A stretch of DNA of 64,000 bases from a virus, in the IMG/VR virus record IMGVR_UViG_3300008120_000012, positions 1 to 64,000 of that record, one strand, 5' to 3'. Each line of letters starts with the position of its first letter. Positions within the stretch are counted from its first letter, which is position 1. The position numbers were made by a program, and so were the translations under genes. The notes beneath the pieces were generated by a model. It made no database searches, was not told the origin of the DNA, and worked only from the letters and a program-made list of their open reading frames with translations. Of the stretch, positions 779-14,026 are shown in pieces.

Positions 779-1122
779 TGGCATTTCCAGGTACATATAA
801 TTTTAACTATTATCGTGGTGATACTTTACAATTTACAATAACACCTAAAGATACTAATGGTGGCGCATTTTCATTAACTGGATATACTGCAGCATTTACA
901 GTTGCTAATCAAAGAGGAACTGGAGCAACTCAATATACTGGCACTACATCTATTAACACAACAACTAATACTATAACATGTACGCTACCAGCAGGAACTG
1001 GAAGAAACTTAGTTGGTGGCTCAACATATGTTTATGACGTTCAAATAACAAACGGTACTCTTATTTACACATTGCTAACAGGAAATATTGCTTCTACTGA
1101 CGATGTGACTGGAGCGGTTTAA
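778..1122 (+). CDS. BppU N-terminal-like baseplate/adaptor protein
   Basis: YYRGDT...YVYDVQIT...LLTGNI pattern. Start reassigned to ATG 778, which overlaps the upstream TAA. Confidence 0.55.
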   Translation: MAFPGTYNFNYYRGDTLQFTITPKDTNGGAFSLTGYTAAFTVANQRGTGATQYTGTTSINTTTNTITCTLPAGTGRNLVGGSTYVYDVQITNGTLIYTLLTGNIASTDDVTGAV

Positions 1123-1679
1123 TGACAACGCTTATAAGTGACGTAGAGTTAACAGTTTTTGGAGGACCAGATGTTGTAGACCTTTCTCTTGATTTTGGAG
1201 AGCAAGGAAAGCGTGGAAGTAAAATTTGGTCTGGTAATGGAAGCCCAGAAACTCAACTAGTTGGTCAAGAATTAGAGTTAAATGATATTTATCTTAATAC
1301 AAATCCATCCGATACTTATTATGGTTGGACATACCAATATGTTTTAGACGGAGTTAATCCTGTTTGGCAAAGAATTCTAAATCCTATTAAGCCAGACTTT
1401 TCAACTATAGCAACAACAACATTTACTGCAGGATCAACAACTATAAATGTTCCTGTTAGCAGTTTGACTACAAACAGTTCTCCAAGCATTTCAAGGTTTA
1501 TTGTAAGATACAGCATAGTGAATTCTAATCCAGTAGCATCTGGATTTACGTATTCTTTAACTGGATCTTATCCTAATCAAAATATAGCAATAGTGATTAA
1601 TGCAGTTTCATATTCTGGAGGTACCTGGTCAAATTTGACTGGTAGCCAAAATGTGCATCTGTATGTCACTTATAAGTAA
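1122..1679 (+). CDS. putative virion structural protein
   Basis: GEQGKRGSKIWSGNGSP...DIYLN short collagen-like/fibre motif; TAATG coupling. Confidence 0.5.
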   Translation: MTTLISDVELTVFGGPDVVDLSLDFGEQGKRGSKIWSGNGSPETQLVGQELELNDIYLNTNPSDTYYGWTYQYVLDGVNPVWQRILNPIKPDFSTIATTTFTAGSTTINVPVSSLTTNSSPSISRFIVRYSIVNSNPVASGFTYSLTGSYPNQNIAIVINAVSYSGGTWSNLTGSQNVHLYVTYK

Positions 1680-1692: not shown

Positions 1693-3087
1693 ATGCCACA
1701 AATTGGTAGTGCATTAACTGGGTTAACACAGTTCAATGTTAATACTCAGATGCCTGCACTAACAGACAATGCAAATATTCAAGAAGCATTGCGTTTATAT
1801 CACTATGGTGCACCTTCAGGTACTGGAGTAGGTCAATATGATCCTACAAATACTGATCCAGTAAACCTTGTTAATCCATCAATAGCACATAGCCTATATA
1901 ATTTACAAACTCAGATAAGCAGCATTTCTGGATCACTTGGTGTACAAGCAGCAACATGGACATCTAAGGGTGCTTTGGTTTCTGCTACTGCTGCTGGAGC
2001 AGTTTCTGCATTAGTCCTACCTTCTCAATCAACTGCTAATGATGGATTTGTTTTAACTATTAACTACTCTGGTTCATCAACTGGTTTGGCTTGGGCATCT
2101 CCTCCAGTTACTCTTACTAATACTGTTACACTTACAAACAAAACTTTAACTGCTCCTAGAATTACATCTGCATCTCATATTGCAGACTCTAATGGTAATG
2201 AATTAATTATTTTCCCAACTGCTGTTGCTTCTGCTGTAAATGAAATTACTATTGCAAATGCTATTGCTACTGGAAAGCCTACTATTTCTGCTACAGGTGG
2301 AGATACAAACATTACTTTAAACCTTGTTTCAAAAGGAACAGGCACAGTCCAGGCTAACGGTGTTGATATTGATACAATTTCTGGTACCGCAACTTTAACA
2401 AACAAAACATTAACGTCTCCTACTATCAATACTCCTACAATTTCATCTCCTACCGTAACTCAACTTTATTTGTCTGACTCAGTTGTTATTTTTGAAGGAT
2501 CTAGTGCTGATGCAAATGAAACAACTTTAGGAGTAGTAAATCCAACAGCAGATAGAACAATTAATTTACCAGATGTTGATGGAACAGTTATTACTACTGG
2601 AAACTTAACTTCTATAACTGCCGTCGGAACAGTAACATCTGGAACATTCCCTGCTGCTAACTTAAGCGGAACTACTCTACCAGCAACGGTAGTATCTTCT
2701 TCACTAACCAGCGTTGGCACCCTTTCTTCTCTTTCAGTTTCTGGTGATCTTACTGTAAGTGGTAGGATGCTTGAGCGAATTTCTATAAATGCACAAACTG
2801 GAACATCGTATACAGTTATTGCTTCTGACGATAGCAAAATGATTGAAATGAATAATGCTTCTGCTAACACAATAACAGTTCCAAATCTTAGCACTATCCC
2901 AACAGGTGCAAAAATAAATATTGTTCAAACAGGAACAGGACAAACTACAATTGCTGCAGGAGCAAACGTAACTATTAATGGAACTCCTGGACTTAAGTTA
3001 AGAGCACAATGGTCTGGAGCAACCTTAATTAAAAGAAGCACAGGGGCAACGGACGTTTGGGTATTGCTAGGAGACCTTGTAGCATGA
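1693..3087 (+). CDS. tail fibre-like protein
   Basis: Thr/Ser/Gly rich with repeated TLTNKTLT and SSSLTSVGTL motifs. The C-terminal ~100 aa domain ending GDLVA is shared with 23354..24658. Confidence 0.75.
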   Translation: MPQIGSALTGLTQFNVNTQMPALTDNANIQEALRLYHYGAPSGTGVGQYDPTNTDPVNLVNPSIAHSLYNLQTQISSISGSLGVQAATWTSKGALVSATAAGAVSALVLPSQSTANDGFVLTINYSGSSTGLAWASPPVTLTNTVTLTNKTLTAPRITSASHIADSNGNELIIFPTAVASAVNEITIANAIATGKPTISATGGDTNITLNLVSKGTGTVQANGVDIDTISGTATLTNKTLTSPTINTPTISSPTVTQLYLSDSVVIFEGSSADANETTLGVVNPTADRTINLPDVDGTVITTGNLTSITAVGTVTSGTFPAANLSGTTLPATVVSSSLTSVGTLSSLSVSGDLTVSGRMLERISINAQTGTSYTVIASDDSKMIEMNNASANTITVPNLSTIPTGAKINIVQTGTGQTTIAAGANVTINGTPGLKLRAQWSGATLIKRSTGATDVWVLLGDLVA

Positions 3088-3764
3088 GTCCAATTATTCC
3101 AGCAGTTCCAGCATCTGGTGGCCATCAGCCAGGTACACCAACTGTAGGAACAGCAAGTGCTGGCAATGCTTCTGCAACAGTTGCTTTTACAGCGCCAGCA
3201 TATTTGGGAAAACCAACTGGAACAACTTATAGAGCAATAACTCAGCCAGTAGTTGTTAGAAGTACAACTGGAACAGTTGCAAACAATGTTCAAATCGGAT
3301 CTATATGGAGAGCAGATATTACTGGTATGTCTGCAGTTACAAACCTTTTTATTAATCAAGTAATTTCGGCAACAAACGGAACTGGATCTTTGGGCGCTGG
3401 TGTTGTTACAATTAAGGCTATTCCATCGTCTACCTCTCTTATTGTTGAGTCAACAGCAACAATGACAAATGGAACTATTACTAATATTTTAGGTGGAATT
3501 GTAGGTACTGGCTCAACATCTCCAGTTACTGTTAGCGGATTAACAAACGGAACAGCATATACTTTTAGACTTAACTTAGATAATACAGTTGTTCAATCTT
3601 TGCCAACAGGAGCAAGTAACTCTGTTACTCCAATTGCACCACCATTCTTCCCGCCATTCTTCCCGCCATTCTTCCCACCGTTCTTCCCACCGTTCTTCCC
3701 ACCATTCTTCCCACCGTTCTTCCCACCACCATACTTCTCATTCATCTGGGGCGCATCTCCTTAA
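3084..3764 (+). CDS. FN3-like domain virion protein (probable fibre tip) with C-terminal (PPFF)x7-PPPYFSFIWG tail
   Basis: ATG 3084 overlaps the upstream TGA (ATGA). FN3 motifs PGTPTVGTASAGNASATVAFTAP and VTVSGLTNGTAYTF...SNSVTP, then a Pro/Phe repeat tail. Confidence 0.75.
   Translation: MSPIIPAVPASGGHQPGTPTVGTASAGNASATVAFTAPAYLGKPTGTTYRAITQPVVVRSTTGTVANNVQIGSIWRADITGMSAVTNLFINQVISATNGTGSLGAGVVTIKAIPSSTSLIVESTATMTNGTITNILGGIVGTGSTSPVTVSGLTNGTAYTFRLNLDNTVVQSLPTGASNSVTPIAPPFFPPFFPPFFPPFFPPFFPPFFPPFFPPPYFSFIWGASP
3639..3722 (+). repeat. 12-bp tandem repeat x7 (ccRccRttcttc) encoding PPFF
   Basis: Seven in-frame units differing only by cca/ccg synonymous changes. Confidence 0.95.
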
Positions 3765-3796
3765 AATATAAGTTGATGTATGCTAGAATTAAAATT

Positions 3797-4537
3797 ATGA
3801 ACAAATTATTTGATAGTTTTTATTTCCTGCATGTTCCAAAAACTGCTGGTAGATTTTTTACACATAATATTGTTGTTCCATTAGACAAAATACTTAAAGA
3901 GCACGGTATAGAAAATTTTTACGATAGAGAAACTTATGTTGCTCATAGGTTTTGGGCAGACTTTATAACAGATAAAACATATGTTACTAGTTTGTTCAGA
4001 GATCCGATCAAGCATGCAGTAAGTTTTTATTCTCATTATGCAATGTTAGATAGAGGTGCTCAAAGAACTATGCCAGTCGGAGCGATGCAATTTAATAAAA
4101 ACACCATGATGGATTGGTTTGAAAATAATAGTCATAGAATTGGGAATATGCAATCTAAAAACTTTTTGTTATCAGATTTAGGTGGTAAAGAATATGGATT
4201 TATGAATAGTGAAAAGGTAATTAATTGTGAAATATCAAAAGAAATAATGATTGAAAGATTACAAGATGTTTCGCTATTAATTAAATCTGAACAATTACAT
4301 CATCAAAATATACAAAATGTTTTTGATAAAATACTTCAAGATTTAAAAATACCACAGCATCAAATTAAACATAATATTCAGAAGGCATCAAATTATTGGA
4401 ACCCTGATTCAACAAGAATATACAAAAGTTTAGATAATACAGACAGGAATAGAATTTTAGAGTGGAATAATGTAGACGCAGAGGTTTACCATACAGAGTC
4501 TGTATTCTATAATATAAATACGAAAGTTAATCAATGA
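3797..4537 (+). CDS. PAPS-dependent sulfotransferase family protein
   Basis: FLHVPKTAG (5'-PSB loop) and FRDP..HAVS (3'-PB) motifs. Start likely ATG 3797, 7 nt after TGCTAGAAT. Confidence 0.75.
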   Translation: MNKLFDSFYFLHVPKTAGRFFTHNIVVPLDKILKEHGIENFYDRETYVAHRFWADFITDKTYVTSLFRDPIKHAVSFYSHYAMLDRGAQRTMPVGAMQFNKNTMMDWFENNSHRIGNMQSKNFLLSDLGGKEYGFMNSEKVINCEISKEIMIERLQDVSLLIKSEQLHHQNIQNVFDKILQDLKIPQHQIKHNIQKASNYWNPDSTRIYKSLDNTDRNRILEWNNVDAEVYHTESVFYNINTKVNQ

Positions 4538-5034
4538 TAAAAGATATACAGTCAATAATTAATAATAATAAGATTATTTGGGAACAAAAAGAAACAAAAG
4601 AAGACTTGTTTCAATATAACTACTACATGCATTTTTTTTATTTATTTGATATTGATGAAAAATTATTTAAAGAAGGTAACAACTTTAAACTTGAAAAAAA
4701 TAAAAATCATGAAATTTGGAATTTAACAAATGAACTAATAAAAGAAATAGAATCTAAATATAATATGATTTCAGGTTCTGCATATTTTGTTAAATTAAAT
4801 CCACAACAATATCCTTTGCGTCAATACTATGAGTTTGAAGAATATGCAAGCATTATAAACAAATGTTATATTCCAATAATAACAAATTCTAATGCTTCAC
4901 TATGTGTTGATGATGAAATATATAACAATATCCCTGGTACAGAAACAATAGCACATAAAGAGCAGTTATCCTCATTGTATAATTTTGGAGAAACAGATAT
5001 TGTGTATTTAATTATTGATTTGATTGATAGATAA
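4534..5034 (+). CDS. aspartyl/asparaginyl beta-hydroxylase-like protein lacking the metal-binding His residues
   Basis: FVKLNP...YIPIITN...LYNFGETDIVYLIID follows the AspH-family scaffold, but the expected HxD and distal His are absent. Confidence 0.55.
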   Translation: MIKDIQSIINNNKIIWEQKETKEDLFQYNYYMHFFYLFDIDEKLFKEGNNFKLEKNKNHEIWNLTNELIKEIESKYNMISGSAYFVKLNPQQYPLRQYYEFEEYASIINKCYIPIITNSNASLCVDDEIYNNIPGTETIAHKEQLSSLYNFGETDIVYLIIDLIDR

Positions 5035-5118
5035 AATAATTATAATACATAGGGTTAAAATTCAAGTTTACAGAACTGCTTAACTATGATATACTAAATA
5101 AAAAACAAAGGAAAATTT

Positions 5119-5913
5119 GTGATAAAAAAAATATCAGAAGCAGTTTCAAATTTAATTATTTTTAGATCCTTCCGTCCTTGGCTCAATAATGAGAGTAACT
5201 CTGTTCCCTTGCCAACTCATAAAACAATGCCAAAATGGTACAAAGATGCAGATAGATTTGCAATTCATCCAATCACAAAAGATTATTATAAGGCGACAAA
5301 AGAAGTGTGTCCATTTCCACGACAAGGCACAACGGATGACTATGGCAAAATACCAACTTGGAAAGCATGCCCAGCAATCATGGATGGTTTTATTACAGGG
5401 TATGTTCTAAGAACTCCATGTGATATTACATTTTTTAAAGACAAGTATGGGAAAATAGATGTTAGTGTTAGTGATGAGAAGCATAAAGATTTTTGTACAA
5501 GGAGACAGCCTATGCCACAGTTTGAGCATCCACAGGGCTACTATCAAGAACATTTTGCATGGATGCCAGACTGGGGTCTAGAAGTTCCAGAAGGATACAG
5601 TTGTTTATATATGACTCCAATGAATAGATTTGACTTACCATTTTTAAATACAACTGGTGTTGTAGATAATGATAGCGTTCATATATCTGGAAGTTTTCCA
5701 TTTTTTGTAATTAAAGATTGGGAGGGAACAATTCCAGCAGGGACTCCGTACATGCAAATACTTCCTTTTAAAAGAGAAGATTGGACACATGAGATAGAGA
5801 TCTTGCAGCAAAAAGAAATTTATGATAGAATGATGGACAACATAAAACTATATCGTCAGCCAGACGGTGGGGTTTATCAAAATGACATTTGGACAAGAAG
5901 AGAGTATAAATAA
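5119..5913 (+). CDS. DUF6065-like (dUTPase-like fold) protein
   Basis: KACP...GYVLRTPCD, GYS...PMN...GVVDND and IPAGTP.MQILP; distantly paralogous to 6571..7287. Confidence 0.5.
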   Translation: MIKKISEAVSNLIIFRSFRPWLNNESNSVPLPTHKTMPKWYKDADRFAIHPITKDYYKATKEVCPFPRQGTTDDYGKIPTWKACPAIMDGFITGYVLRTPCDITFFKDKYGKIDVSVSDEKHKDFCTRRQPMPQFEHPQGYYQEHFAWMPDWGLEVPEGYSCLYMTPMNRFDLPFLNTTGVVDNDSVHISGSFPFFVIKDWEGTIPAGTPYMQILPFKREDWTHEIEILQQKEIYDRMMDNIKLYRQPDGGVYQNDIWTRREYK

Positions 5914-5914
5914 A

Positions 5915-6571
5915 ATGCAAACATGGAGTGCTAAAGAAGATCTTGGCAATGGAATTTATTGCTATAGAGATGTAATTAAACCAGAATTTGATATTATTAA
6001 CATATTAGAAAAAAATCTTGGCGCTATTGATAGCGAAAATGTTTTTAAGTGGAGACCAGCATATGTTGGTTATCAACAATTAATTCCAAGTTATCGTGAT
6101 TGTGTTGATTTTAAGTTTAAAAAAGAAGATATTCAACATATAGATACAGAAGAGTCATTAATTTTTCAAGATATGTGGCAAAAGGTTTATGATGCACAGC
6201 GTGTCGCAGTTGATGATTATCGTAAAGATTTTAATATTATGGATTTAAAATATTGGGAAGCCTTTAATTTTATTAAATATGGCCCAGGACAACACTTCCA
6301 AGAACATCATGATCATGGCTATTCTTATAACTGTACAGTTTCATTGGTTGCCTATGTTAATGATGATTACGAAGGTGGAGAGTTGTATTTTAGATTACAA
6401 AAAATGAACATCAAGCCAAAGGCTGGAGATTTATATGTGTTCCCATCTAACTTTATGTATCCACATCGTGCAATGCCCGTTCATTCTGGAACAAAGTATT
6501 CAATTGTAACAATGTTAGACTATAATAAAAAGTTTCATACAAGAGAGATGTATGTAGAAGACACAGAATAA
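5915..6571 (+). CDS. 2OG-Fe(II) oxygenase, prolyl 4-hydroxylase-like (#1)
   Basis: HHD, YVNDDYEGGELYF, distal H (PHRAMPV) and K (GTKYS). Start ATG 5915. Confidence 0.9.
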   Translation: MQTWSAKEDLGNGIYCYRDVIKPEFDIINILEKNLGAIDSENVFKWRPAYVGYQQLIPSYRDCVDFKFKKEDIQHIDTEESLIFQDMWQKVYDAQRVAVDDYRKDFNIMDLKYWEAFNFIKYGPGQHFQEHHDHGYSYNCTVSLVAYVNDDYEGGELYFRLQKMNIKPKAGDLYVFPSNFMYPHRAMPVHSGTKYSIVTMLDYNKKFHTREMYVEDTE

Positions 6572-7287
6572 TGAAAGTATCTGTTTATAAAATACCAAAC
6601 CATCCAGTTAAAATAGAACAAACTCAAGTTCAGAGGAACTGGATGGATGATACTTATGACAGACACGCATATAAATGCTTTCCTGTATCTCTTGCTAACT
6701 CCATTGGCTGGTCTATATCTTTTTTAGAAGACATAGAGTTTGTTTGGGATGGTGTTGTAGATACAACTCAAGATCATGTTAAAATATTAAAATCACCACC
6801 GAATGTTTGTAACTTAGGTCGTGGAAATGCAACAATAAGTTTTAATAGTGGTTTATATTTTCGTACTGATGAAAATACATCTATTATTTCTATTGTCCCA
6901 CCAAATTATTTTATAGATGGCGCAACACCATTTACGTCAATAATGTCTACTTCATTTTATGATGAGGCTTTTCCAATTGCATGGAGAATAACTAGGTCAC
7001 ATCAAAATATTGTAATTCCTGCAGGCACTCCAGTTGCTACATTAATTCCAGTTTCACTTGAAAAACTTTCTTTGATTGAGTTAGAGGTATATGACAAAAC
7101 TTTTGATCCAGAGGCCCTGCAAGAAAAAAGGGAATACCTAGAAGAATGGAAAAAAATATCAGAGCAGGGCAAGTTTAGTAATTTTTATAGAGATGCTGTT
7201 GATCATAAAGGGCAAAGCATAGGCAGCCATGAAAAAAAGTCTTTACACTTAAAAATAACAGATTTAACTACAAAAAACGAGAGGTGA
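6571..7287 (+). CDS. DUF6065 family protein
   Basis: RNWMD...HAYKCFPVSLANSIGW, PPNYFIDG and IPAGTP motifs. Confidence 0.65.
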   Translation: MKVSVYKIPNHPVKIEQTQVQRNWMDDTYDRHAYKCFPVSLANSIGWSISFLEDIEFVWDGVVDTTQDHVKILKSPPNVCNLGRGNATISFNSGLYFRTDENTSIISIVPPNYFIDGATPFTSIMSTSFYDEAFPIAWRITRSHQNIVIPAGTPVATLIPVSLEKLSLIELEVYDKTFDPEALQEKREYLEEWKKISEQGKFSNFYRDAVDHKGQSIGSHEKKSLHLKITDLTTKNER

Positions 7288-7299
7288 TATAATAATAAT

Positions 7300-8022
7300 A
7301 TGGAAATCACAAACAAGAATCACTTAGATAGAGTCGCAAAGTCTATTACGCCTTCTGGATTTTATGGAACTGGCAAAGACATGATTGTTGAACTTGAAAA
7401 CTTTATGACACAGGAAGAGATTGATTTTCTAGAAAATGCTGCAAAGTCTATAACTATTTGGGATGTTACAGAAAGTCATCAAAATGACAACGGTACTGTT
7501 ATTTATGATGCTAACTATTGGAAAGATAGAGTGGCAACTAGGTCTAGTCTAGATAAAAATGATCCCAGAATTGGTCCAGTAATTGAAGGCCTATTTAAAA
7601 AACTACAACCAATTATTGAAGACTTTTTTAAAGTTAAAGTTCAACCAACTGGACAAACAATTGTAAGATGGCTTCCTGGACAATTTCAAAAACCACATGC
7701 AGACAAAGAACTTCATGAGGGTCCTGATGCTGGACTGGCTAATGATTTTCCATACTATGATCTTTCAAGTTTATTTTACTTAAATGATGACTACGAGGGT
7801 GGAGAGTTATATTTCCCGTTGCAAGATGTTAAGTTTAAACCAAAAAAAGGTGCAGCATATTTTTTCCCAGGAGACATGAACTTTATCCATGGAGTTACAG
7901 AAATTAGAAATGGTATTAGATACACCTGTCCATTCTTTTGGACCATTTTAGAACATACTGGAGAAGTAAAGCCAAATCAAAATGAAAAGTACCACAGGAC
8001 ATTGTTGGATGGTGATAAATAA
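7300..8022 (+). CDS. 2OG-Fe(II) oxygenase, prolyl hydroxylase-like (#2)
   Basis: HAD, YLNDDYEGGELYF, HGV, GIRY. Confidence 0.9.
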   Translation: MEITNKNHLDRVAKSITPSGFYGTGKDMIVELENFMTQEEIDFLENAAKSITIWDVTESHQNDNGTVIYDANYWKDRVATRSSLDKNDPRIGPVIEGLFKKLQPIIEDFFKVKVQPTGQTIVRWLPGQFQKPHADKELHEGPDAGLANDFPYYDLSSLFYLNDDYEGGELYFPLQDVKFKPKKGAAYFFPGDMNFIHGVTEIRNGIRYTCPFFWTILEHTGEVKPNQNEKYHRTLLDGDK

Positions 8023-8024
8023 AT

Positions 8025-8765
8025 ATGAAAGAGATTAGATATTCAGAGGATATTTTAGTATATGAAGATTTTCTTACACCTGAAGAATGTCAAAAAATTA
8101 TTGATGTTTTAAATTTGCAGGTAAAGAATGAAACAATGCAATGGACACCTATAACATTTTACGAATCATATTCATCTAATTTACCAAAAGATAATGATCC
8201 AGAAATTTTAGAATGTGGTTTGCCAGGAACCTTTTTTTCAGATATTGAACAAAAGATTATAGAGATAACTGCAAAGATTCATAATAAAGATCCAAAACAG
8301 ATGTCTAAAATTGGATATCACACACAAAAATGGGAAAAGGGAGCATATGCTACTGTACATGCTGATAACTCATATAATGATGGAACTCCAAGTCCATTTG
8401 AAAGAAGTAGATATGCAACGTTTGTATATTTAAATGAAGATTTTGAAGGTGGGATATTAAATTTCCCAGAACGACAAATACAGATAAAACCTAAAACTGG
8501 GCTACTTGCTGCTTTTGCTGGAGATTACACAAATTTGCATGAAGTTACAATGATTACAAAAGGCACTAGATATACCTTGGGATCTTTTTGGGATGATAGG
8601 GACGCTGAAGACTATCCAGAAGAAGTAAGAAATAGATGGGAAGAAGAAATGAAAAAAATTAGAGAGTCTCAAGAAGAAACAAAGGCTGAATGGAAAGAGT
8701 TGTTAGACGAAGGATACAAGATTGATCCTATCGGAAATAAATACAAAGTGGAGGAACAAGCATGA
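8025..8765 (+). CDS. 2OG-Fe(II) oxygenase, prolyl hydroxylase-like (#3)
   Basis: HAD, YLNEDFEGG, HEV, GTRY; charged helical C-terminal extension. Confidence 0.9.
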   Translation: MKEIRYSEDILVYEDFLTPEECQKIIDVLNLQVKNETMQWTPITFYESYSSNLPKDNDPEILECGLPGTFFSDIEQKIIEITAKIHNKDPKQMSKIGYHTQKWEKGAYATVHADNSYNDGTPSPFERSRYATFVYLNEDFEGGILNFPERQIQIKPKTGLLAAFAGDYTNLHEVTMITKGTRYTLGSFWDDRDAEDYPEEVRNRWEEEMKKIRESQEETKAEWKELLDEGYKIDPIGNKYKVEEQA

Positions 8766-9532
8766 AGTTAGAGAAAAGGTTACATGAAAACATCTATTAC
8801 TATACAGATGTTTTGCCAGATCATGAAAAATTTCTTAATTTAATTTTAGAGACAGATGGTAATCCAGACATACAGCCAGTAATTCCATCATGGCAAAAGT
8901 GGCTTTCTAACTCAAATGACGGCTACTCCTTTGGTGGTAAAAAAGATATGCAGCCAAACAATTTGCACCTACTTTCTGGTGAAACAAAAGAGAAGGCAGA
9001 GTACATTGTTGACTCAATATTAGGTTCAATAAAAAAGGTTGCAGAGGCTTTCATACAAGATAGAGGGCTAGACATACCAAATCCAAACCTTTCTCCTTTT
9101 GCTGGAATAATGAAATATATTCCAGGATTAGAAATGGGTGCACATTTTGATGCACAGGCTGGAGATGAAAGTCTTTGGTGGTCTATTATAGTTTATGTAA
9201 ATGATAACTATGAGGGCGGAGAACTTTCTTGGATTCTTCATGATAAAGATCTAAGAGATCCACAGTACAGCCATTTGAAGCCACACTCAGATATTAATGA
9301 CCCTAGAAATGAGGAACTTGTTGACTTTTGGATTAAGCCAGTTGCAGGATCTGCATTGATCTTTCCATCTACTTTCCCATATCGTCATCAAGTACATTTA
9401 ATGAAGTCTGGTGATAAGTATATGTTCCCTGGTTTTATTTTTAAAGATGGATATGATCCATCAGATCCAGAATCTATTGAAAAATTTAATGGTGGCTCAA
9501 AGGTGGTAAAAAAGAGTCCATATGAACAATAA
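8762..9532 (+). CDS. 2OG-Fe(II) oxygenase, prolyl hydroxylase-like (#4)
   Basis: HFD, YVNDNYEGGEL, HQV, GDKY. Confidence 0.9.
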   Translation: MKLEKRLHENIYYYTDVLPDHEKFLNLILETDGNPDIQPVIPSWQKWLSNSNDGYSFGGKKDMQPNNLHLLSGETKEKAEYIVDSILGSIKKVAEAFIQDRGLDIPNPNLSPFAGIMKYIPGLEMGAHFDAQAGDESLWWSIIVYVNDNYEGGELSWILHDKDLRDPQYSHLKPHSDINDPRNEELVDFWIKPVAGSALIFPSTFPYRHQVHLMKSGDKYMFPGFIFKDGYDPSDPESIEKFNGGSKVVKKSPYEQ

Positions 9533-10334
9533 TTTTGATTATAGTAATGATTCTTATGATATAGAATTTTTACATCCCAAGGTTTGGTTATTTAAAAATG
9601 CCTTCAAGCATAGTAAAGAAATTATTGATTACTTTGAAAAAAACCATGAATGGAGAAAATGGGAAATTTTTGGTACAGAGTCCAAAATATCAACACCAGA
9701 AAAAACATATTCTAACTTTCCGACCAAAGAAGAATGGAAAAATGATATAGTTGATCATGTTAATAATGAATATGTAACAGAATTTTTGTGGGTATTTTAT
9801 AATACAACAAAATTGTTTTGTGAAAAATTAGATATTAAAAAGGATAACTGGATTTTTACAACAACTGAAATATCAAAATATTATGAAAATATGGGTGTAT
9901 CTAATGATGGCGCTATGAACTTTCATACTGATCATGAACAAGAAAAAGAATCTGAAGAAGGAATTAAATTTGGAACTGCTTGTTTAGTTTATTTAAATGA
10001 TGACTATGAAGGCGGAGAGATTGTTTTTAGAATATCAGATGATAGTTTTAGTAAGGTAGTTGATGAATTTTCCTATAAGCCAAAAACTGGCGATGTGTTA
10101 GTTTTTCCATCAGAACATCCGTTTTATCACGCAGTAAATGCAATTAAAAATAAACAAAAATATTTAATAAGACATTGGTGGAGACATTGGTACCAAGGCA
10201 GTCAAGAATTTATAGATCTAAAGAATAAGTTTATGTTAGAAAATAATCCAGAAGACTGGGAAAAATATTTAATAGATTATCGTAGATCAAAAAGAATTAA
10301 CATAGATACTATTATAAACCAATTACAAAAATGA
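9522..10334 (+). CDS. 2OG-Fe(II) oxygenase, prolyl hydroxylase-like (#5)
   Basis: HTD, YLNDDYEGGE, HAV, QKY. Confidence 0.9.
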   Translation: MNNNFDYSNDSYDIEFLHPKVWLFKNAFKHSKEIIDYFEKNHEWRKWEIFGTESKISTPEKTYSNFPTKEEWKNDIVDHVNNEYVTEFLWVFYNTTKLFCEKLDIKKDNWIFTTTEISKYYENMGVSNDGAMNFHTDHEQEKESEEGIKFGTACLVYLNDDYEGGEIVFRISDDSFSKVVDEFSYKPKTGDVLVFPSEHPFYHAVNAIKNKQKYLIRHWWRHWYQGSQEFIDLKNKFMLENNPEDWEKYLIDYRRSKRINIDTIINQLQK

Positions 10335-11002
10335 TACTAAATAAAAAAGCCTTAGTTATTGGAGGAACCTCTAGCATATCCCATGAAATAATTGAAACAC
10401 TTAATAGCAACGGGTATTTTGTTGATTTAACTTATAATAATATAGAAAATTTTAAAAAAAGAAACATTTATTCTGATAAATATGTAAGTTGGCATTATTT
10501 AAACCTGCACGATCTTGATTGTATAAAAAATTTTATAAATACAAAAATAGAAAACTATTATTCTATTGTAGTTTTTATTTCAATGACGTCTCCTGGTAAT
10601 TTTATGGAAAATACTGAAGAAGAACTTGTTAATTTTTATGGCAAATATCTTGTTAATAATATGTTGATGTCAAAATATTTATTAAATAAAATTACTAATG
10701 ATGGTAAAATTATCTATATATCCTCTATTGCAGTTACTAAACCAGTTCCACAAATTAATTATGCAACTATAAAAGGTGCCCTACAGTCTTTTTACGTATC
10801 GCTATCAACCAATGTTAAACCAACACAGACTGTCATATCCATAATTCCAGGGCTAATATATGATACCCCCGCTTTTTATAGGTGTAGTTTGGACATGATA
10901 GACAATATAGATAACCTAGCAAAAAAACAAGAAATTGCTGATATAATAATTAACTGTAGTCCAAAAGATAATGGAACTCTCATTAGAGTAGGGAAAGACT
11001 AA
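10331..11002 (+). CDS. short-chain dehydrogenase/reductase (SDR), divergent
   Basis: ALVIGGTSSIS Rossmann start, IIYISS, YATIK (YxxxK), IIPG. Confidence 0.75.
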   Translation: MILNKKALVIGGTSSISHEIIETLNSNGYFVDLTYNNIENFKKRNIYSDKYVSWHYLNLHDLDCIKNFINTKIENYYSIVVFISMTSPGNFMENTEEELVNFYGKYLVNNMLMSKYLLNKITNDGKIIYISSIAVTKPVPQINYATIKGALQSFYVSLSTNVKPTQTVISIIPGLIYDTPAFYRCSLDMIDNIDNLAKKQEIADIIINCSPKDNGTLIRVGKD

Positions 11003-11003
11003 T

Positions 11004-11465
11004 ATGGAGCAATTAAAAGTAGAGCATAGCGACATGGTTGATGACTATATAAGTCAGGTTAAAGATAAAACTGCTAATTCTTATATGCTAACAATTGCTA
11101 GAGACGGAGAAGAGCCAGTTAGAACTATTATATTTTATGATAATGCTATAGATGCTGCATTTGCTTATAATAAATATACAGACTGGGGTTTTGCAAGAAA
11201 ATTTTTAACTGTTAAATTATATGAACCATCTGGAAAAATAAATGAAAAAGTTCTTGTTAGAGATCAGGCTGGAGAATGTACCTTTATAAGACAGGACTAT
11301 ATAGATTTTGAAAATTTATTGTTTATTTATAAAGATAAAATTGAAAAAGATGTTTATGACTCTTTAGTATTTGATGTTATGAAAATTTTTGCTAAGGATA
11401 ATTGGAGGTTTAATCCAGAAAGATTTTTATTAGCATTAGGTGTAAATAAAAGGTTAGAACTATGA
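11004..11465 (+). CDS. hypothetical protein
   Basis: 153-aa ORF tightly packed in the operon; no catalytic motif recognised. Confidence 0.6.
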   Translation: MEQLKVEHSDMVDDYISQVKDKTANSYMLTIARDGEEPVRTIIFYDNAIDAAFAYNKYTDWGFARKFLTVKLYEPSGKINEKVLVRDQAGECTFIRQDYIDFENLLFIYKDKIEKDVYDSLVFDVMKIFAKDNWRFNPERFLLALGVNKRLEL

Positions 11466-12082
11466 AATATGAGTTTTTAGAAAATAACATTGTTTACTTT
11501 GAATCTGTAATACAAAATGTTCAAGATATTATAGACACAATGGAAGGCTTATCAAATCCAGCAGTTACTGACTGGGAGGCATGGTATGCATATAATACAA
11601 CAACAAGATATGGCGATATAAAATACTTGTGCAAAAAAGAACTAATCGGTATTGAAGATAGAATTATTAAAGAAAAATCACAATTTGTTATTGAATCCTT
11701 AATTAATAATATGTGTGCTTGTATTGATAAATATGGAGAATTGTTTAATATTAATACAAATAAAATGATATTTGCTAAAGAAATTTTAAACAATGACTTC
11801 ACTAAGATTGGCATCTATAAATATTCTCAAAATGCAACCATGGGACCACATGTTGACTGGAATGATGACAATAATTATTTAGAATATACTATAGTTGTAT
11901 ATCTTAATGACGACTACGAAGGTGGAGAGTTGTACTTCAATGAATTTGATATTAAACTAAAGCCAAAGGCTGGTAGCATTGTTATGTATCCATCAGTTAA
12001 ACCATACACACACGAATCTTTAAAAGTGGTAAGTGGAAGAAAATGTTTGATTACTCATCATTGGAGAAATGATGAAATTTAA
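11462..12082 (+). CDS. 2OG-Fe(II) oxygenase, prolyl hydroxylase-like (#6)
   Basis: HVD, YLNDDYEGGELYF, HES, GRK. Confidence 0.9.
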   Translation: MKYEFLENNIVYFESVIQNVQDIIDTMEGLSNPAVTDWEAWYAYNTTTRYGDIKYLCKKELIGIEDRIIKEKSQFVIESLINNMCACIDKYGELFNINTNKMIFAKEILNNDFTKIGIYKYSQNATMGPHVDWNDDNNYLEYTIVVYLNDDYEGGELYFNEFDIKLKPKAGSIVMYPSVKPYTHESLKVVSGRKCLITHHWRNDEI

Positions 12083-12091
12083 GGAGCCACT

Positions 12092-12760
12092 ATGGAATTA
12101 AAACCAATACAATCAACAACGTTAATGGATTATGAAAGTGGTCAAAATGTTGAAGTAAAGCAGTTTCAAGTAGAAGACTTAATTTTAAATCATGAATTTG
12201 CCACACCCCACGCAGGCTTTGCCCTTAGATTCAATAACGATAAAAAAGACGGTACCTTTTTAGAAATTGGTGCATGTCATTGGAAGCAGGGTAATAATAC
12301 ATATCTTTTAGAAAAAGAATTTAATTGGAAAGGTGTTGCTATTGATATAGTGAAACATTTTGCTGACGACTATAATATAAATAGATCAAGTCACTGTATA
12401 CATGGAGATGCTTTTTCATATAATTGGGATCAGTATTTAAGTGAAAACAATTTTCCAAAAAGAATAGATTATTTGCAAATAGATGTTGATAAAACACCAG
12501 ATTGGGCAAATTTATTTGCTTTGCTTAATGTTCCATTATCTAGATACAGATTTAATACAATTACTTTGGAGCATTGTGCAAATATGGATCCAAGACTAAT
12601 GAAAATGAGAGATTTACAAAGAGAGATTTTATTTTCTTATGGATACAGAATTGTTGCTGCTGGGTATGATGAGGATTGGTGGATAGATTCGCAACTAGGA
12701 ATTAGTGAGTCAGAATTTAATTCAATTTCTTATCAAGCATGGGCTAAAAAGTTTATTTAA
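12092..12760 (+). CDS. FkbM-like SAM-dependent methyltransferase
   Basis: GTFLEIGA motif I, NNTYLLEKEFNWKGVAID, IDYLQIDVD, ITLEH. Confidence 0.75.
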   Translation: MELKPIQSTTLMDYESGQNVEVKQFQVEDLILNHEFATPHAGFALRFNNDKKDGTFLEIGACHWKQGNNTYLLEKEFNWKGVAIDIVKHFADDYNINRSSHCIHGDAFSYNWDQYLSENNFPKRIDYLQIDVDKTPDWANLFALLNVPLSRYRFNTITLEHCANMDPRLMKMRDLQREILFSYGYRIVAAGYDEDWWIDSQLGISESEFNSISYQAWAKKFI

Positions 12761-13296
12761 AAATTTTTAATAAAACTTGTGTTTTCATTACCTTTTATAA
12801 AAATAGTAAACATATATCTAGTGCCAGTTTCTACTGGAAGGACAGAATGCCAATAGTCCCATTTATGAACTATAACAGATTTTGCTTTAGGTTTTATTTT
12901 ATAATCTAATTCTGGGTAATATAGTTCCCCACCTGTAAAATTATCATTAACATAAAAAACTGCTCCAAATACAATATTTGTATTGGTGCCAGATGGATCA
13001 AAATCTTGATGCTCACTCATATACATTCCATCTTTTAGTCTTTGTAAATCAATTACTTCTAAATATGAAGTATAGTTTTTAAAATATTTCATTAGTTTTT
13101 CTTCTAAACTTCTAAAAGTTGGTATTATTTCTGTTTTAAAATTATTAATATTATAGTTTCTTCCACCAACATCTTGCCATTCATTTTCAGAAACGTGATC
13201 TATAGCATCATTTAGCAATGCAATTTCTTCATTTGTAATAAAGTTTTCCAGTTCCCAGATATAATCATGGTGTTGTATTATATTTATATTATACAT
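12757..13296 (-). CDS. 2OG-Fe(II) oxygenase, prolyl hydroxylase-like (#7)
   Basis: HQD, YVNDNFTGGELYY, HSV, GTRY; its stop overlaps the convergent gene at TTAA. Confidence 0.9.
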   Translation of the reverse strand: MYNINIIQHHDYIWELENFITNEEIALLNDAIDHVSENEWQDVGGRNYNINNFKTEIIPTFRSLEEKLMKYFKNYTSYLEVIDLQRLKDGMYMSEHQDFDPSGTNTNIVFGAVFYVNDNFTGGELYYPELDYKIKPKAKSVIVHKWDYWHSVLPVETGTRYMFTIFIKGNENTSFIKNF

Positions 13297-13321: not shown

Positions 13322-13894
13322 TTACTTTGGAAATTTTTGCATCCATGTTTTTGTACGTGGCGTGATGCCTTTCCAGGCACTCCAATTTTTACCACCATTA
13401 CTCATGTGATACGCAATCTGAGCATTAACTACTGGATTCATTAACTCAGCAGTAAAATTTAAGCCATATTTTTCACGACGATCTGGACCAAGCATGCTTA
13501 TCATATTTATTTGGAATAGTCCAAAAGAACTGTCTCCAGTCTTAGCATTGCCATTAAAAGCCAATGGTCTGCCGTTGGACTCCTTTTTAGCAATAGCCCA
13601 AGCCTCAATAAGGTCCTTGCCCCTAAACCCAACTCCCTTTAGAAGTTCTTTAAGTTGCCTATCAGATAGATAGGTTGCATTTTGATATTTATGTAAAACG
13701 TTCATGTCCTTTTTTACCTTAAGTAATGATTTGGGCTTAGATACCAAAAAAACCGCCTTTGGGGCGGTAGATTCAGAAACAGCCTGTTTACTTAAGTTAT
13801 TTTCATCAGACAGAGCATTAGCCTTATTAGACACCAAAGTGAAAGTAAAGACAAATGCGAGTACCCCTATTAAAAATTTTTGATCATTCTTCAT
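13322..13894 (-). CDS. secreted lysozyme-like / lytic transglycosylase
   Basis: N-terminal signal peptide ending ANA; AIAKKES (catalytic Glu), GLFQIN, NPVVNAQIA, WSAW. Start ATG 13894 follows the SD aaggagg. Confidence 0.8.
   Translation of the reverse strand: MKNDQKFLIGVLAFVFTFTLVSNKANALSDENNLSKQAVSESTAPKAVFLVSKPKSLLKVKKDMNVLHKYQNATYLSDRQLKELLKGVGFRGKDLIEAWAIAKKESNGRPLAFNGNAKTGDSSFGLFQINMISMLGPDRREKYGLNFTAELMNPVVNAQIAYHMSNGGKNWSAWKGITPRTKTWMQKFPK
13746..13768 (-). terminator. intrinsic terminator-like hairpin inside the lysozyme-like CDS
   Basis: Minus strand accgcc-ccaaa-ggcggt followed by tttttt. Confidence 0.55.
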
Positions 13895-13941
13895 AGTTTC
13901 CTCCTTAGAAAACAATAACACCTTGTTAGGTGTCTATGAAT

Positions 13942-13970
13942 AGTATAACACCTAAAAATGTTATTGTCAA
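13942..13970 (-). promoter_or_regulatory. strong sigma70-type promoter for the lysozyme-like gene
   Basis: Minus strand TTGACA-17-TATACT with an extended TG. Confidence 0.75.
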
Positions 13971-14008
13971 ATGGGCTTTTTAATAAAAAACTAAAAAATC
14001 TTTTAGCA

Positions 14009-14017: not shown

Positions 14018-14026
14018 AGAAACACT

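What the first reader, a model, noticed from the sequence alone, without database searches (positions are those of the whole stretch)
3084..13296. Candidate phage-encoded post-translational modification system: Pro-repeat virion substrate plus a cassette of 7 prolyl-hydroxylase-like enzymes, sulfotransferase, methyltransferase and SDR
Seen: an FN3-like protein ends in (PPFF)x7-PPPYFSFIWGASP. It is immediately followed by 13 genes: seven intact HxD...H 2OG-Fe(II) oxygenases, a sulfotransferase, an AspH-like protein, two DUF6065-like proteins, an SDR, an FkbM-like methyltransferase and one hypothetical. The cassette is embedded between fibre genes. Known: P4H-type 2OG oxygenases bind polyproline-II peptides, and the AspH family hydroxylates protein side chains. 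Inference: these are not generic auxiliary metabolic genes but a substrate-plus-tailoring-enzyme cluster, organised like a RiPP locus. It would chemically mature a virion-displayed peptide (hydroxylation of Pro/Phe/Tyr/Trp, sulfation, methylation), building a modified adhesin or receptor-binding tip.
Basis: partly seen in the sequence, partly recalled or inferred. Interest (0 to 1): 0.92.

Follow-up and report, generated by a model that had tools for sequence, protein, structure and literature searches.

The report
Phage Pro-Phe tail protein with hydroxylases
An uncultured long-tailed phage encodes, among its tail-fibre genes, a small protein that ends in seven Pro-Pro-Phe-Phe units and is followed by seven collagen-type proline-hydroxylase-like enzymes. 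This makes the tract a testable candidate substrate for phage oxygenases whose role has long been unknown, but no chemistry has been shown.

Summary
ORF 3084-3764 ends in (PPFF)x7-PPPYFSFIWGASP. It is followed by 14 tightly packed genes, not 13. Seven are intact P4H-type 2OG-Fe(II) oxygenases and two are DUF6065 proteins, which model as a dUTPase-like fold. The rest are an SDR, a sulfotransferase-like gene, an AspH-like gene, a weak FkbM-like gene and a conserved unknown.

The tail protein belongs to a large family of uncultured-phage proteins. Among 63 dereplicated Pro/aromatic-tract proteins with enough flank, 50 have such an oxygenase within 3 kb downstream, against 1 of 46 upstream. The pairing also occurs in two phages with unrelated capsids. 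One relative places a GT60 polypeptide GlcNAc-transferase-family gene between the tail gene and the oxygenases. The closest solved relatives of the oxygenases are all protein Pro/Lys hydroxylases.

There are limits. Most cases share one synteny frame. Some relatives have the tract but no adjacent cassette. Syn9 has a similar array without such a tract. Oxygenase number did not track tract length in my sample. The published reading of such arrays is secondary metabolism or host metabolism. No modification has been measured.

This scan has noted the same kind of locus before on other DNA (79 notes, at least 68 genomes).

The parts
1122..1679 (+). Conserved upstream gene of the synteny frame (185 aa, no family).
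   Evidence: Homologs sit two genes upstream of the tail gene in many related loci.
1693..3087 (+). Tail-fibre / virion structural protein (464 aa). Its stop overlaps the start of the tail-protein gene.
   Evidence: phrog_18179 E 2e-21 and phrog_38058 tail fibre. It is conserved just upstream of the tail gene in relatives.
3084..3764 (+). Candidate substrate. It has a conserved N-terminus, an FN3 domain split by a fibre-type insert, then (PPFF)x7 and PPPYFSFIWGASP.
3639..3728 (+). 12-nt tandem repeat that encodes (PPFF)n.
   Evidence: Tandem Repeats Finder: period 12, 7.5 copies, score 145.
3726..3752 (+). Nonapeptide PPYFSFIWG, first copy.
   Evidence: The pattern matches twice in the window, with 0 expected from 100 shuffles.
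3773..4537 (+). Sulfotransferase-like protein (254 aa) that starts 8 nt after the tail gene.
   Evidence: It carries the HVPKTAGRF motif. The Atlas gives 0.96 and TM 0.6-0.72 to Sulfotransfer_2 / Gal-3-O-sulfotransferase clusters. There is no Pfam, NCBIfam or PDB sequence hit. Homologs sit next to tail genes in L041/L043 and L055.
4534..5034 (+). AspH-like (Asp/Asn beta-hydroxylase family) small protein. Its start overlaps the stop of the sulfotransferase-like gene.
   Evidence: PF05118 E 0.034, below cut-off. The Atlas gives 0.96 and TM 0.77. Bacterial kin are fused to sulfotransferase domains. Metal ligands were not verified.
5119..5913 (+). DUF6065-like paralog b.
   Evidence: phrog_7084 E 1.6e-32. 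It aligns with DUF6065 proteins (A3). Orthologs reach E 1e-130 to 1e-150 in related cassettes.
5867..6571 (+). P4H-type 2OG-Fe(II) oxygenase 1. The start is uncertain because the GTG overlaps the previous gene.
   Evidence: PF13640 58.8 bits. HxD...H...K are present.
6571..7287 (+). DUF6065 protein with a dUTPase-like fold and an invariant Cys.
   Evidence: PF19541 E 8e-34. The model has pLDDT 81. VIA-align gives Z 8-10 to 14 dUTPases.
7300..8022 (+). P4H-type oxygenase 2.
   Evidence: PF13640 37.4 bits; triad present.
8025..8765 (+). P4H-type oxygenase 3.
   Evidence: PF13640 36.5 bits; triad present.
8762..9532 (+). P4H-type oxygenase 4.
   Evidence: PF13640 33.6 bits; triad present.
9522..10334 (+). 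P4H-type oxygenase 5.
   Evidence: PF13640 41.7 bits; triad present.
10331..11002 (+). Short-chain dehydrogenase/reductase.
   Evidence: PF00106 43.6 bits. The best NCBIfam hit is far below its cut-off.
11004..11465 (+). Conserved cassette protein of unknown fold (153 aa).
   Evidence: Orthologs at E 1e-46 sit inside the cassettes of L006-L014. The model has pLDDT 74 and no clear fold match.
11462..12082 (+). P4H-type oxygenase 6.
   Evidence: PF13640 46.7 bits; triad present.
12092..12760 (+). Possible FkbM-type methyltransferase (weak call).
   Evidence: PF05050 E 0.079, below cut-off. Only motif-level likeness to the genome's clear FkbM gene.
12757..13296 (-). P4H-type oxygenase 7, on the opposite strand.
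   Evidence: PF13640 38.7 bits; triad present.
13322..13921 (-). SLT-type lysozyme, the right border of the variable slot.
   Evidence: PF18896 E 1.7e-16. It is conserved at the right edge of the slot in relatives.
13958..20317 (+). 2119-aa fibre that shares the inserted domain of the tail protein.
   Evidence: phrog_6002. BLASTP E 3e-10 and 1e-9 to residues 55-138 of the tail protein.
52696..53532 (+). Second candidate substrate, a tail-tip-module protein. Its N-terminal extension carries PPYFSFIWGGAP, (PYVP)x5 and a run of 13 Pro.
   Evidence: It lies between a minor tail protein and a tail protein, after the tape measure. Relatives P0123 and P0127 keep the motif and the repeats.

Best explanation
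The region is the fibre module of an uncultured siphovirus-like phage.

**The tail protein.** The small protein at 3084-3764 is a fibre-associated virion protein. It has a conserved N-terminus and an FN3 domain with a fibre-type insert, and its C-terminus is a free Pro/Phe tract.

**The cassette.** The 14 genes behind it are a Syn9-type tandem dioxygenase array with extras:
- P4H-type oxygenases and dUTPase-fold DUF6065 proteins form the core.
- A sulfotransferase-like/AspH-like pair, an SDR and perhaps a methyltransferase extend it.

**Proposed mechanism.**
- The array is made together with the late fibre genes.
- It hydroxylates peptidyl proline in the Pro-rich tracts of the phage's own virion proteins. 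The candidates are this tail and the N-terminal extension of the tail-tip protein at 52696-53532. Hydroxylation of other side chains is possible.
- Some hydroxyls are then decorated further. Decoration could be sulfate from phage-made PAPS, or sugars started by the phage GT60 and extended and tailored by its GT-B, FkbM and carbamoyl enzymes.
- The result would be an extensin-like, chemically hardened or sticky stalk.

**Shown:** gene content, family membership, catalytic residues, gene order, and the comparative association.

**Inferred:** presence on the virion, substrate identity, every chemical step, and the role of DUF6065.
For: **Enzyme type**
- All seven oxygenases pass PF13640 and keep HxD...H...K/R.
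- A profile of the seven hits only protein hydroxylases among solved structures:
  - P3H1, E 4e-12
  - PBCV-1 P4H 5c5t, E 5e-11
  - B. anthracis P4H
  - PHD2
  - LH3
  - Chlamydomonas P4H

**Operon-like packing**
- The cassette starts 8 nt after the tail gene.
- Most junctions overlap or are at most 12 nt apart.
- No terminator-like site lies between the genes.

**Family and synteny**
- The tail protein has 535 relatives in the protein search and at least 459 loci in IMG/VR.
- The recurrent frame is p1122 - fibre - tail gene - [0-8 oxygenases + DUF6065] - SLT.

**Association**
- 50 of 63 dereplicated Pro/aromatic-tract ORFs have an oxygenase within 3 kb downstream.
- Only 1 of 46 has one upstream.
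- Other ORFs of the same loci score 34%.

**Independence**
- Small proteins with a different, PASTA-like N-terminus and a C-terminal tract are also followed by oxygenases.
- Records G011 (94% complete) and G012 (91%) show the pairing but have no homolog of this phage's capsid protein.

**Genome level**
- Of 10 records where the tract gene has no adjacent oxygenase, 6 carry 1-9 oxygenases elsewhere. The 4 without are fragments only 5-39% complete.
- Five complete genomes with tail-less FN3 fibres have none.

**Downstream chemistry**
- GT60 (PF11397): E 4e-52 at genome positions 84179-85090.
- APS kinase, GT-B and FkbM genes also lie there.
- A carbamoyltransferase lies at genome positions 76700-78127.
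- In L087 the order is tail gene, GT60, four oxygenases, DUF6065, GT-B.
- Bacterial kin of the AspH-like protein are fused to sulfotransferases. That matches the adjacent gene pair here.
- It also matches the published prediction of hydroxylation followed by sulfation of co-encoded structural proteins (PMC2938197).

**Scale**
- The same phage has at least 10 such oxygenases.
Against: - No measurement of any modification exists. Even for PBCV-1 P4H, no hydroxyproline was found in virions (PMC7019647).
- 48 of the 63 tract proteins are one homologous family, mostly in one synteny frame. Adjacency is therefore largely inherited, and the slot could simply be a recombination hot spot.
- Tract genes are followed directly by SLT, with no cassette, in L024/L032, L033, L039, L042/L057, L081/L082, L090 and L092.
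- Large fibres with internal PPFF linkers have no oxygenase nearby.
- Syn9 has a ten-dioxygenase array after its fibre genes but no Pro/Phe tract there.
- P4H-type oxygenases are common in cyanophages and pelagiphages that lack this protein family.
- Oxygenase number did not follow tract length or Pro count (rho 0.22 and 0.18, not significant, n = 33).
- (PPFF)n is not a known P4H substrate sequence.
- DUF6065 has a nucleotide-enzyme fold. A halovirus homolog sits beside thymidylate synthase.
Confidence: 0.45

Rival explanations
1. The cassette is an auxiliary or secondary-metabolism island. The tandem dioxygenases, with the SDR, methyltransferase and sulfotransferase, make or alter a small molecule, or they consume 2OG to steer host nitrogen and carbon metabolism. 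On this reading the island sits in a hypervariable slot of the fibre module by accident of recombination.
For: - This is the published reading. Syn9-type arrays were assigned to halogenated or peptide secondary metabolites (PMC2938197).
- Cyanophage 2OG oxygenases were assigned to 2OG/NtcA control or DNA repair (PMC3037559).
- They have also been treated as seasonal auxiliary metabolic genes (PMC11561400).
- The slot is variable, holding 0 to 8 oxygenases between the same flanking genes.
- The cassette has 28-33% G+C against 38-40% in the flanking fibre genes.
- Oxygenases of this type occur in many phages without the tail family.
Against: - The nearest solved relatives are protein hydroxylases, not small-molecule enzymes.
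- The array has no peptide synthetase, halogenase or transporter.
- The strong directional bias, 50 of 63 downstream against 1 of 46 upstream, is not expected of a random island.
- The pairing recurs in phages with other capsids.
- Both known GT60 activities act on polypeptides (CAZy, from memory).
Confidence: 0.25
2. The oxygenases do modify proteins, but not the Pro/Phe tail. Their targets could be other phage structural proteins, such as long fibres or Gly-rich fibre accessory proteins, or host proteins such as translation factors. The (PPFF)n tract would then be an unmodified rigid linker or docking element.
For: - (PPFF)n occurs as an internal linker in large fibres with no oxygenase nearby.
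- In relatives it is followed by Hint or S74 self-cleaving domains, which are typical of fibre assembly.
- Syn9's array follows Gly-rich fibre-region proteins.
- Tract length does not predict enzyme number.
- Known bacterial members of this enzyme family act on EF-Tu or ribosomal proteins (from memory).
Against: - Free C-terminal tracts go with many oxygenases, and tracts buried before another domain go with few (rho -0.38, p 0.03).
- Complete genomes with tail-less FN3 fibres have no oxygenase.
- In L087, GT60 sits directly next to the tail gene.
Confidence: 0.15
3. The toolkit acts on nucleotides, nucleotide sugars or host surface glycans. Possible roles are DNA or precursor modification, or remodelling of the cell envelope to block superinfection.
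For: - DUF6065 has a dUTPase / dCTP-deaminase-like fold.
- Its halovirus homolog lies beside thymidylate synthase and DNA polymerase.
- The sulfotransferase resembles carbohydrate sulfotransferases.
- FkbM, carbamoyltransferase and GT-B enzymes usually tailor sugars.
Against: - The oxygenases are P4H-type, not TET/JBP or AlkB. The only Tet_JBP hit has E 0.016, and the solved relatives are all protein hydroxylases.
- A recent paper on hydroxylated cytosine in viral DNA does not mention dioxygenases or 2-oxoglutarate.
- DUF6065's conserved residues (W24, C36, G46, P154) are not the classical dUTPase motifs (my reading).
Confidence: 0.1

Closest known systems
Chlorovirus PBCV-1 prolyl 4-hydroxylase (PDB 5c5t) and that virus's Pro-rich repeat peptides
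   Same: It is a virus-encoded small P4H-type 2OG oxygenase. It is the second-best solved match to the profile of the seven paralogs (E 5e-11). In vitro it hydroxylates Pro-rich repeat peptides encoded by its own genome (Eriksson et al. 1999, cited in PMC9301287 and PMC7019647).
   Different: - PBCV-1 has one enzyme in a eukaryotic virus, and it is not next to a substrate gene.
- Its substrates are PAPK-type repeats, not PPFF.
- Its role in vivo is unknown, and no hydroxyproline was found in virions (PMC7019647).
- Here there are 7 to 10 paralogs with DUF6065 partners directly behind the candidate substrate.
Tandem dioxygenase array of Synechococcus phage Syn9 (gp41-gp54; Iyer, Abhiman, de Souza and Aravind 2010, PMC2938197)
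   Same: Both have many classical 2OG-Fe(II) dioxygenases in tandem with a Cys-bearing dUTPase-fold protein. Both arrays lie directly downstream of the tail-fibre genes on the same strand.
   Different: - Syn9 adds two tryptophan halogenases and a JmjC (MINA-type) enzyme inside the array.
- Syn9 has no Pro/Phe-tract protein nearby.
- The authors proposed secondary-metabolite synthesis.
- Here the array has a sulfotransferase-like/AspH-like pair, an SDR and a candidate protein substrate.
Predicted bacterial operons of beta-hydroxylase, sulfotransferase and PAPS synthetase with collagen-like or tail-collar proteins (PMC2938197)
   Same: An AspH-family hydroxylase is coupled to a sulfotransferase, with PAPS supplied by an APS kinase in this genome. 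A co-encoded low-complexity structural protein is proposed as the substrate. Bacterial AspH-sulfotransferase fusions are the structural neighbours of ORF 4534-5034.
   Different: Those systems are bacterial, have Gly-rich collagen-like substrates, and remain a prediction. Here the system is in a phage fibre module and has a Pro/Phe tract.
Skp1 hydroxyproline glycosylation (PhyA prolyl hydroxylase plus the GT60 enzyme Gnt1) and plant or algal hydroxyproline-rich glycoproteins
   Same: P4H-type enzymes occur with a GT60-family (PF11397) transferase in one genome (E 4e-52). In relative L087 they are adjacent. Pro-rich tracts are the presumed acceptor.
   Different: - Skp1 is modified at one Pro of a globular protein.
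- Extensins use Ser-Pro(n) motifs in the secretory pathway.
- No hydroxyproline or glycan has been shown here.
- In this phage, GT60 is about 80 kb away on the contig map.
Mycobacteriophage virion glycosylation of C-terminal extensions of capsid and tail-tube proteins
   Same: Phage-encoded enzymes decorate low-complexity C-terminal extensions of the phage's own virion proteins.
   Different: That system is direct O-glycosylation of Ser/Thr-rich tails by glycosyltransferases, with no oxygenases. It has experimental proof, which this locus lacks.

Membership tests
P4H-type 2OG-Fe(II) oxygenase (Pfam PF13640, 2OG-FeII_Oxy_3) | Score above the Pfam gathering cut-off (27 bits). | tested here: met
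   All seven ORFs score 33.6-58.8 bits. Six are also found by the genome search.
P4H-type 2OG-Fe(II) oxygenase (Pfam PF13640, 2OG-FeII_Oxy_3) | The HxD...H iron triad and a basic residue for the 2OG C5 carboxylate. | tested here: met
   The alignment of the seven paralogs shows these motifs:
- HxD: HHD, HAD, HAD, HFD, HTD, HVD, HQD
- Distal His: present in all seven
- K or R in the G-x-[KR]-[YC] motif: present in all seven
P4H-type 2OG-Fe(II) oxygenase (Pfam PF13640, 2OG-FeII_Oxy_3) | Hydroxylation of peptidyl proline. | not testable with these tools
   The only evidence is similarity to P3H1, PBCV-1 P4H, B. anthracis P4H and PHD2.
Syn9-type tandem dioxygenase array (PMC2938197) | Several distinct classical 2OG dioxygenases in tandem, plus a dUTPase-fold protein with a conserved Cys. 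| tested here: met
   There are seven paralogs at 22-30% identity to the first. DUF6065 models as a dUTPase-like fold (Z 8-10). C36 is invariant in 25 sequences.
Syn9-type tandem dioxygenase array (PMC2938197) | Tryptophan halogenases and a JmjC (MINA-type) member inside the array. | tested here: not met
   Pfam scans of all cassette ORFs show neither. A JmjC/cupin gene exists elsewhere in the genome, at L002:9554-10084.
DUF6065 (Pfam PF19541) | Score above the gathering cut-off (26.6 bits). | tested here: met
   ORF 6571-7287 scores 117.6 bits. ORF 5119-5913 has no Pfam hit but matches phrog_7084 at E 1.6e-32, as does 6571-7287.
Sulfotransferase (Pfam PF03567, Sulfotransfer_2) | A profile match and a PAPS-binding 5'-PSB loop. 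| tested here: inconclusive
   There is no Pfam, NCBIfam or PDB sequence hit. A PKTAG loop is visible in the sequence. The Atlas gives 0.96 by features and TM 0.60-0.72 to clusters in which 21-81% of members carry PF03567.
Asp/Asn beta-hydroxylase (Pfam PF05118) | A profile match above cut-off and metal-binding His residues. | tested here: inconclusive
   - Pfam gives 14.4 bits against a cut-off of 22.6.
- hhalign finds no relation to the P4H paralogs.
- The Atlas gives 0.96 with 209 shared features and TM 0.77 to PF05118 clusters.
- The first metal ligand could not be located by eye.
FkbM methyltransferase (Pfam PF05050) | A profile match above cut-off. | tested here: not met
   E 0.079, 13.5 bits against 22.7. 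There are only short motif matches to the genome's clear FkbM protein.
Fibronectin type III domain (Pfam PF00041) | A profile match above cut-off. | tested here: inconclusive
   The window protein scores 14.3 bits against 25 because the domain is split by an insert. Relatives without the insert pass (L019, 25.5 bits). Many hits carry PF00041.
RiPP biosynthetic locus | A short precursor with leader and core, a recognition element or leader-binding enzyme, and a protease or exporter. | tested here: not met
   The candidate substrate is a 226-aa multi-domain protein translationally coupled to a fibre gene. No protease, transporter or recognition-element family was found among the 14 genes.
Hydroxyproline O-glycosylation pathway (P4H plus GT60) | A P4H-type enzyme and a GT60-family transferase in one system. 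| tested here: met
   PF11397 E 4e-52 at L002:4179-5090 in this genome. In L087 the GT60 gene (E 9.5e-18) lies between the tail gene and four oxygenases. Only 1 of 5 other related records has one.
Hydroxyproline O-glycosylation pathway (P4H plus GT60) | Hydroxyproline-linked sugar on the protein. | not testable with these tools
   There are no proteomic or chemical data.

The most novel reading that the evidence does not exclude
The nonapeptide PPYFSFIWG, shared by the fibre-module tail protein and the tail-tip protein, is a recognition tag. It would recruit a battery of at least ten hydroxylases, with DUF6065 as the tract-binding partner, to two virion proteins. The hydroxyls would then be sulfated, glycosylated and methylated. 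On this reading the phage builds an extensin-like, chemically matured stalk or adhesin, and the abundant marine and freshwater phage '2OG-Fe(II) oxygenase / ferrochelatase' auxiliary metabolic genes are in fact virion-maturation enzymes.
Probability: 0.15. Interest if true: 0.85.

Novelty: new variant of a known kind. Interest (0 to 1): 0.62.

Why it matters
P4H-type 2OG-Fe(II) oxygenases, often mis-named ferrochelatase in RefSeq, are among the most common 'auxiliary metabolic genes' of aquatic phages. Their role has been open since at least 2007-2010:
- One proposal is control of 2OG and nitrogen stress, or DNA repair (PMC3037559).
- Another is secondary metabolism (PMC2938197).
- A 2022 survey calls their use 'cryptic' (PMC9301287).

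A co-encoded, repeatedly associated Pro/aromatic tract gives a concrete peptide substrate to test with ordinary biochemistry. If it holds, a large class of presumed metabolic genes would become virion-maturation enzymes. Hydroxyproline-rich, possibly sulfated and glycosylated, proteins would be added to phage particle chemistry. That would bear on host recognition, particle stability and how viral metagenomes are annotated.

Tried and rejected
The contigs of the closest protein relatives (P0003-P0006) could not be read.
- **Metagenome scan.** It returned only the same phage in another assembly (L095) and more distant loci.
- **Cultured phages.** Nucleotide and protein searches found no relative of the tail protein.
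- **The nonapeptide in IMG/VR.** The pattern gave one chance match, antisense to a real gene.
- **Complex prediction.** Oxygenase 1 with the last 52 residues of the tail protein returned 'no answer'. This is no evidence either way.
- **Fold of the conserved 153-aa cassette protein.** There were only generic helical matches, Z at most 6.2.
- **Dose relation.** Oxygenase number did not track tract length or Pro count in 33 dereplicated loci.
- **AspH-like protein as a divergent P4H paralog.** Rejected by hhalign (probability 0.14).
- **Terminal Trp cap as a general feature.** Only 10 of 57 terminal tracts have W near the end.
- **Promoter and terminator scans.** Counts were no higher than in shuffled sequence.
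- **DNA hydroxylation link.** The 2026 paper on hydroxycytosine in viral DNA does not mention dioxygenases.
- **Host and habitat.** Neither was established here.

Full report
**What the window is**

The window is the first 64 kb of a 94.6-kb linear IMG/VR virus record, estimated 88% complete. Its content is as follows:
- A class II-type ribonucleotide reductase, portal, head protease and major capsid protein.
- The capsid protein is about 44% identical to those of Streptomyces BE-cluster siphophages.
- A 2322-aa tape measure is followed by a tail-tip module.
- One fibre is 45% identical to a cyanomyovirus virion protein.
- No cultured phage matches the region at the DNA level.

**The observation**

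ORF 3084-3764 starts with an ATG that overlaps the stop of the fibre gene 1693-3087. It ends in (PPFF)x7-PPPYFSFIWGASP. The repeat is a 12-nt tandem array with synonymous variation.

Fourteen genes follow with almost no spacing.
- Seven are PF13640 oxygenases above the gathering score. All have HxD, the distal His and the 2OG-binding Lys/Arg.
- Two are DUF6065-type proteins.
- One is an SDR.
- The sulfotransferase call has no profile support. It is backed by a PKTAG loop and by ESM Atlas similarity to Sulfotransfer_2 and Gal-3-O-sulfotransferase clusters.
- The AspH-like call is below the Pfam cut-off but well supported by the Atlas. The Atlas also shows bacterial relatives fused to sulfotransferase domains, which matches the adjacent gene pair here.
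- The FkbM call is weak.

The FN3 domain is split by an ~85-aa insert that occurs twice in the neighbouring 2119-aa fibre. This ties the protein to the fibre apparatus.

**More of the same in this genome**

- A second assembly of the same phage (L095, 99.97% identical over 3.7 kb) extends 6.9 kb to the left of the window. It carries two more PF13640 genes.
- The other contig end has a partial oxygenase-like C-terminal ORF, identified by reading the sequence only.
- The far end of the record also encodes several further enzymes:
  - an APS-kinase fusion
  - a GT60-family transferase (PF11397, E 4e-52)
  - two GT-B enzymes
  - a clear FkbM methyltransferase
  - a JmjC/cupin protein
  - a carbamoyltransferase
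- A tail-tip-module protein (52696-53532) has an N-terminal extension with PPYFSFIWGGAP, five PYVP units and thirteen prolines. The nonapeptide occurs twice in the window, with none expected by chance.
- Relatives of that protein keep a conserved 140-aa C-terminal domain but have very variable extensions. Two of them (P0123 and P0127) retain PPYF[ST]x[LI]WG and PYVP-type repeats.

**The tail-protein family**

- The tail protein has 535 relatives in the protein database and at least 459 loci in IMG/VR.
- They share the N-terminus and FN3 domain, followed by Pro/aromatic repeats (PPFF, PFFPPYF, PFSFT, PPYFV) or Pro-rich plus Cys-rich tails.
- In many relatives the repeat is followed by a Hint/intein-like domain or a Peptidase_S74 chaperone. 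Both self-cleave and are typical of fibre assembly.
- The same (PPFF)n unit also occurs in unrelated small proteins with a PASTA-like N-terminus. It also occurs as an internal linker in 900-aa fibres.

**The association test**

- *Synteny frame.* In related loci the gene order is p1122, fibre, tail gene, a variable slot with 0 to 8 oxygenases and DUF6065 proteins, then SLT and large fibres. Orthologs of individual paralogs (E 1e-110 to 1e-150) keep their order, so the array is a conserved unit.
- *Direction.* After dereplication at 90% identity, 50 of 63 Pro/aromatic-tract ORFs with at least 3 kb of downstream flank have an oxygenase within 3 kb downstream. Only 1 of 46 has one upstream. Other ORFs of the same loci score 34%.
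- *Non-independence.* 48 of the 63 belong to one homologous family.
- *Independent support.* Small proteins with another N-terminus are also followed by oxygenases. Two nearly complete records show the pairing but have no homolog of this capsid protein.
- *Exceptions.*
  - Several relatives have the tail gene directly followed by SLT.
  - Fibres with internal tracts have no oxygenase nearby.
  - Of ten such records, six have oxygenases elsewhere, and the other four are small fragments.
- *Negative control.* Five complete genomes with tail-less FN3 fibres have none.
- *Dose.* Oxygenase number did not follow tract length or Pro count. It fell when the tract is followed by another domain.

**What the enzymes resemble**

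- A profile of the seven paralogs finds only protein Pro/Lys hydroxylases among solved structures. Prolyl 3-hydroxylase 1 and the PBCV-1 viral P4H are at the top.
- DUF6065 models with pLDDT 81 as a dUTPase-like barrel (Z 8-10) and has an invariant Cys.
- A paralog has homologs in haloarchaeal viruses, next to thymidylate synthase. A nucleotide-related role is therefore not excluded.
- In L087 a GT60 gene lies between the tail gene and four oxygenases, with a GT-B gene beyond.

**Literature**

- Cyanophage 2OG oxygenases have been linked to 2OG/NtcA control or DNA repair (PMC3037559).
- They have also been treated as seasonal auxiliary genes (PMC11561400).
- Viral use of P4H was called cryptic in 2022 (PMC9301287).
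- Iyer et al. proposed secondary metabolism for the Syn9 array. For bacteria they proposed hydroxylation followed by sulfation of co-encoded collagen-like or tail-collar proteins.
- Syn9's array lies right after its fibre genes, but the neighbouring proteins are Gly-rich, not Pro/Phe-rich.
- No hydroxyproline was found in PBCV-1 virions (PMC7019647).
- I found no paper that links Pro/Phe tracts to phage oxygenases.
- This scan has noted the same kind of locus on other DNA.

**Verdict**

The most likely reading (about 0.45) is that the array matures the phage's own Pro-rich virion proteins. It would do so by prolyl hydroxylation, possibly followed by sulfation and glycosylation.

The main rival (about 0.25) is an auxiliary or secondary-metabolism island in a variable slot. 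Smaller weight goes to other protein targets and to nucleotide or glycan targets.

The locus is a new variant of known kinds: viral P4H with Pro-rich repeats, and the Syn9-type array. The RiPP analogy is not apt. The substrate link can be tested directly with co-expression and mass spectrometry.

Noticed in passing
window 3726-3752 and 52942-52968: The identical nonapeptide PPYFSFIWG occurs in two otherwise unrelated virion-module proteins, with synonymous DNA differences. Relatives of the second protein (P0123 and P0127) keep PPYF[ST]x[LI]WG, in one case twice.
   Followed up: partly
relatives P0007, P0024, P0043, P0046, L019:2058-2957, L015:2331-3266; P0005, L147:1082-1762: In many relatives the Pro/aromatic tract is followed by a Hint/intein-like domain (it starts with Cys; PF14890 E 1e-6) or by a Peptidase_S74 intramolecular chaperone. 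The window protein has neither.
   Followed up: partly
window 6571-7287 and 5119-5913; L230:5848-6717 (HSTV-2 gene 40): DUF6065 has a dUTPase-like fold with an invariant Cys. Homologs of the b paralog occur in 49 haloarchaeal virus records. In HSTV-2 the homolog lies beside thymidylate synthase and DNA polymerase.
   Followed up: partly
L002:2880-10084 and L001:12700-14127 (genome 76.7-90.1 kb): A second enzyme set lies on the same genome. It has an APS-kinase fusion, GT60 (PF11397, E 4e-52), an IMPDH/GMP-reductase-like protein, two GT-B enzymes, FkbM, JmjC/cupin and a carbamoyltransferase.
   Followed up: partly
L095:1-6917: Another assembly of the same phage extends 6.9 kb beyond the window's left end. 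It carries two more PF13640 oxygenases on the minus strand (3903-4562 and 4559-5521). That assembly breaks inside the PPFF repeat.
   Followed up: yes
related loci, e.g. L031, L038, L107, L109, L139, L164, L191: Many terminal tracts end in the same cap, FPP[ARSG]FK or PGFGPGFK, with a C-terminal Lys.
   Followed up: no
window 3773-5034: The adjacent sulfotransferase-like and AspH-like genes overlap at stop and start. They mirror large bacterial families in which AspH and sulfotransferase domains are fused in one protein.
   Followed up: partly
window 4000-12000: The cassette has 28-33% G+C, against 38-40% in the flanking fibre genes.
   Followed up: no
L055:11147-12487, L034:11195-12637, L047, L068: Relatives whose tail protein ends in a Cys-rich domain have a single long (~450-aa) oxygenase with an extra N-terminal domain in place of a multi-gene array. 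In L055 it is followed by a sulfotransferase-like gene.
   Followed up: no
window 40689-47657: The tape measure protein has 2322 residues, which implies a very long tail.
   Followed up: no
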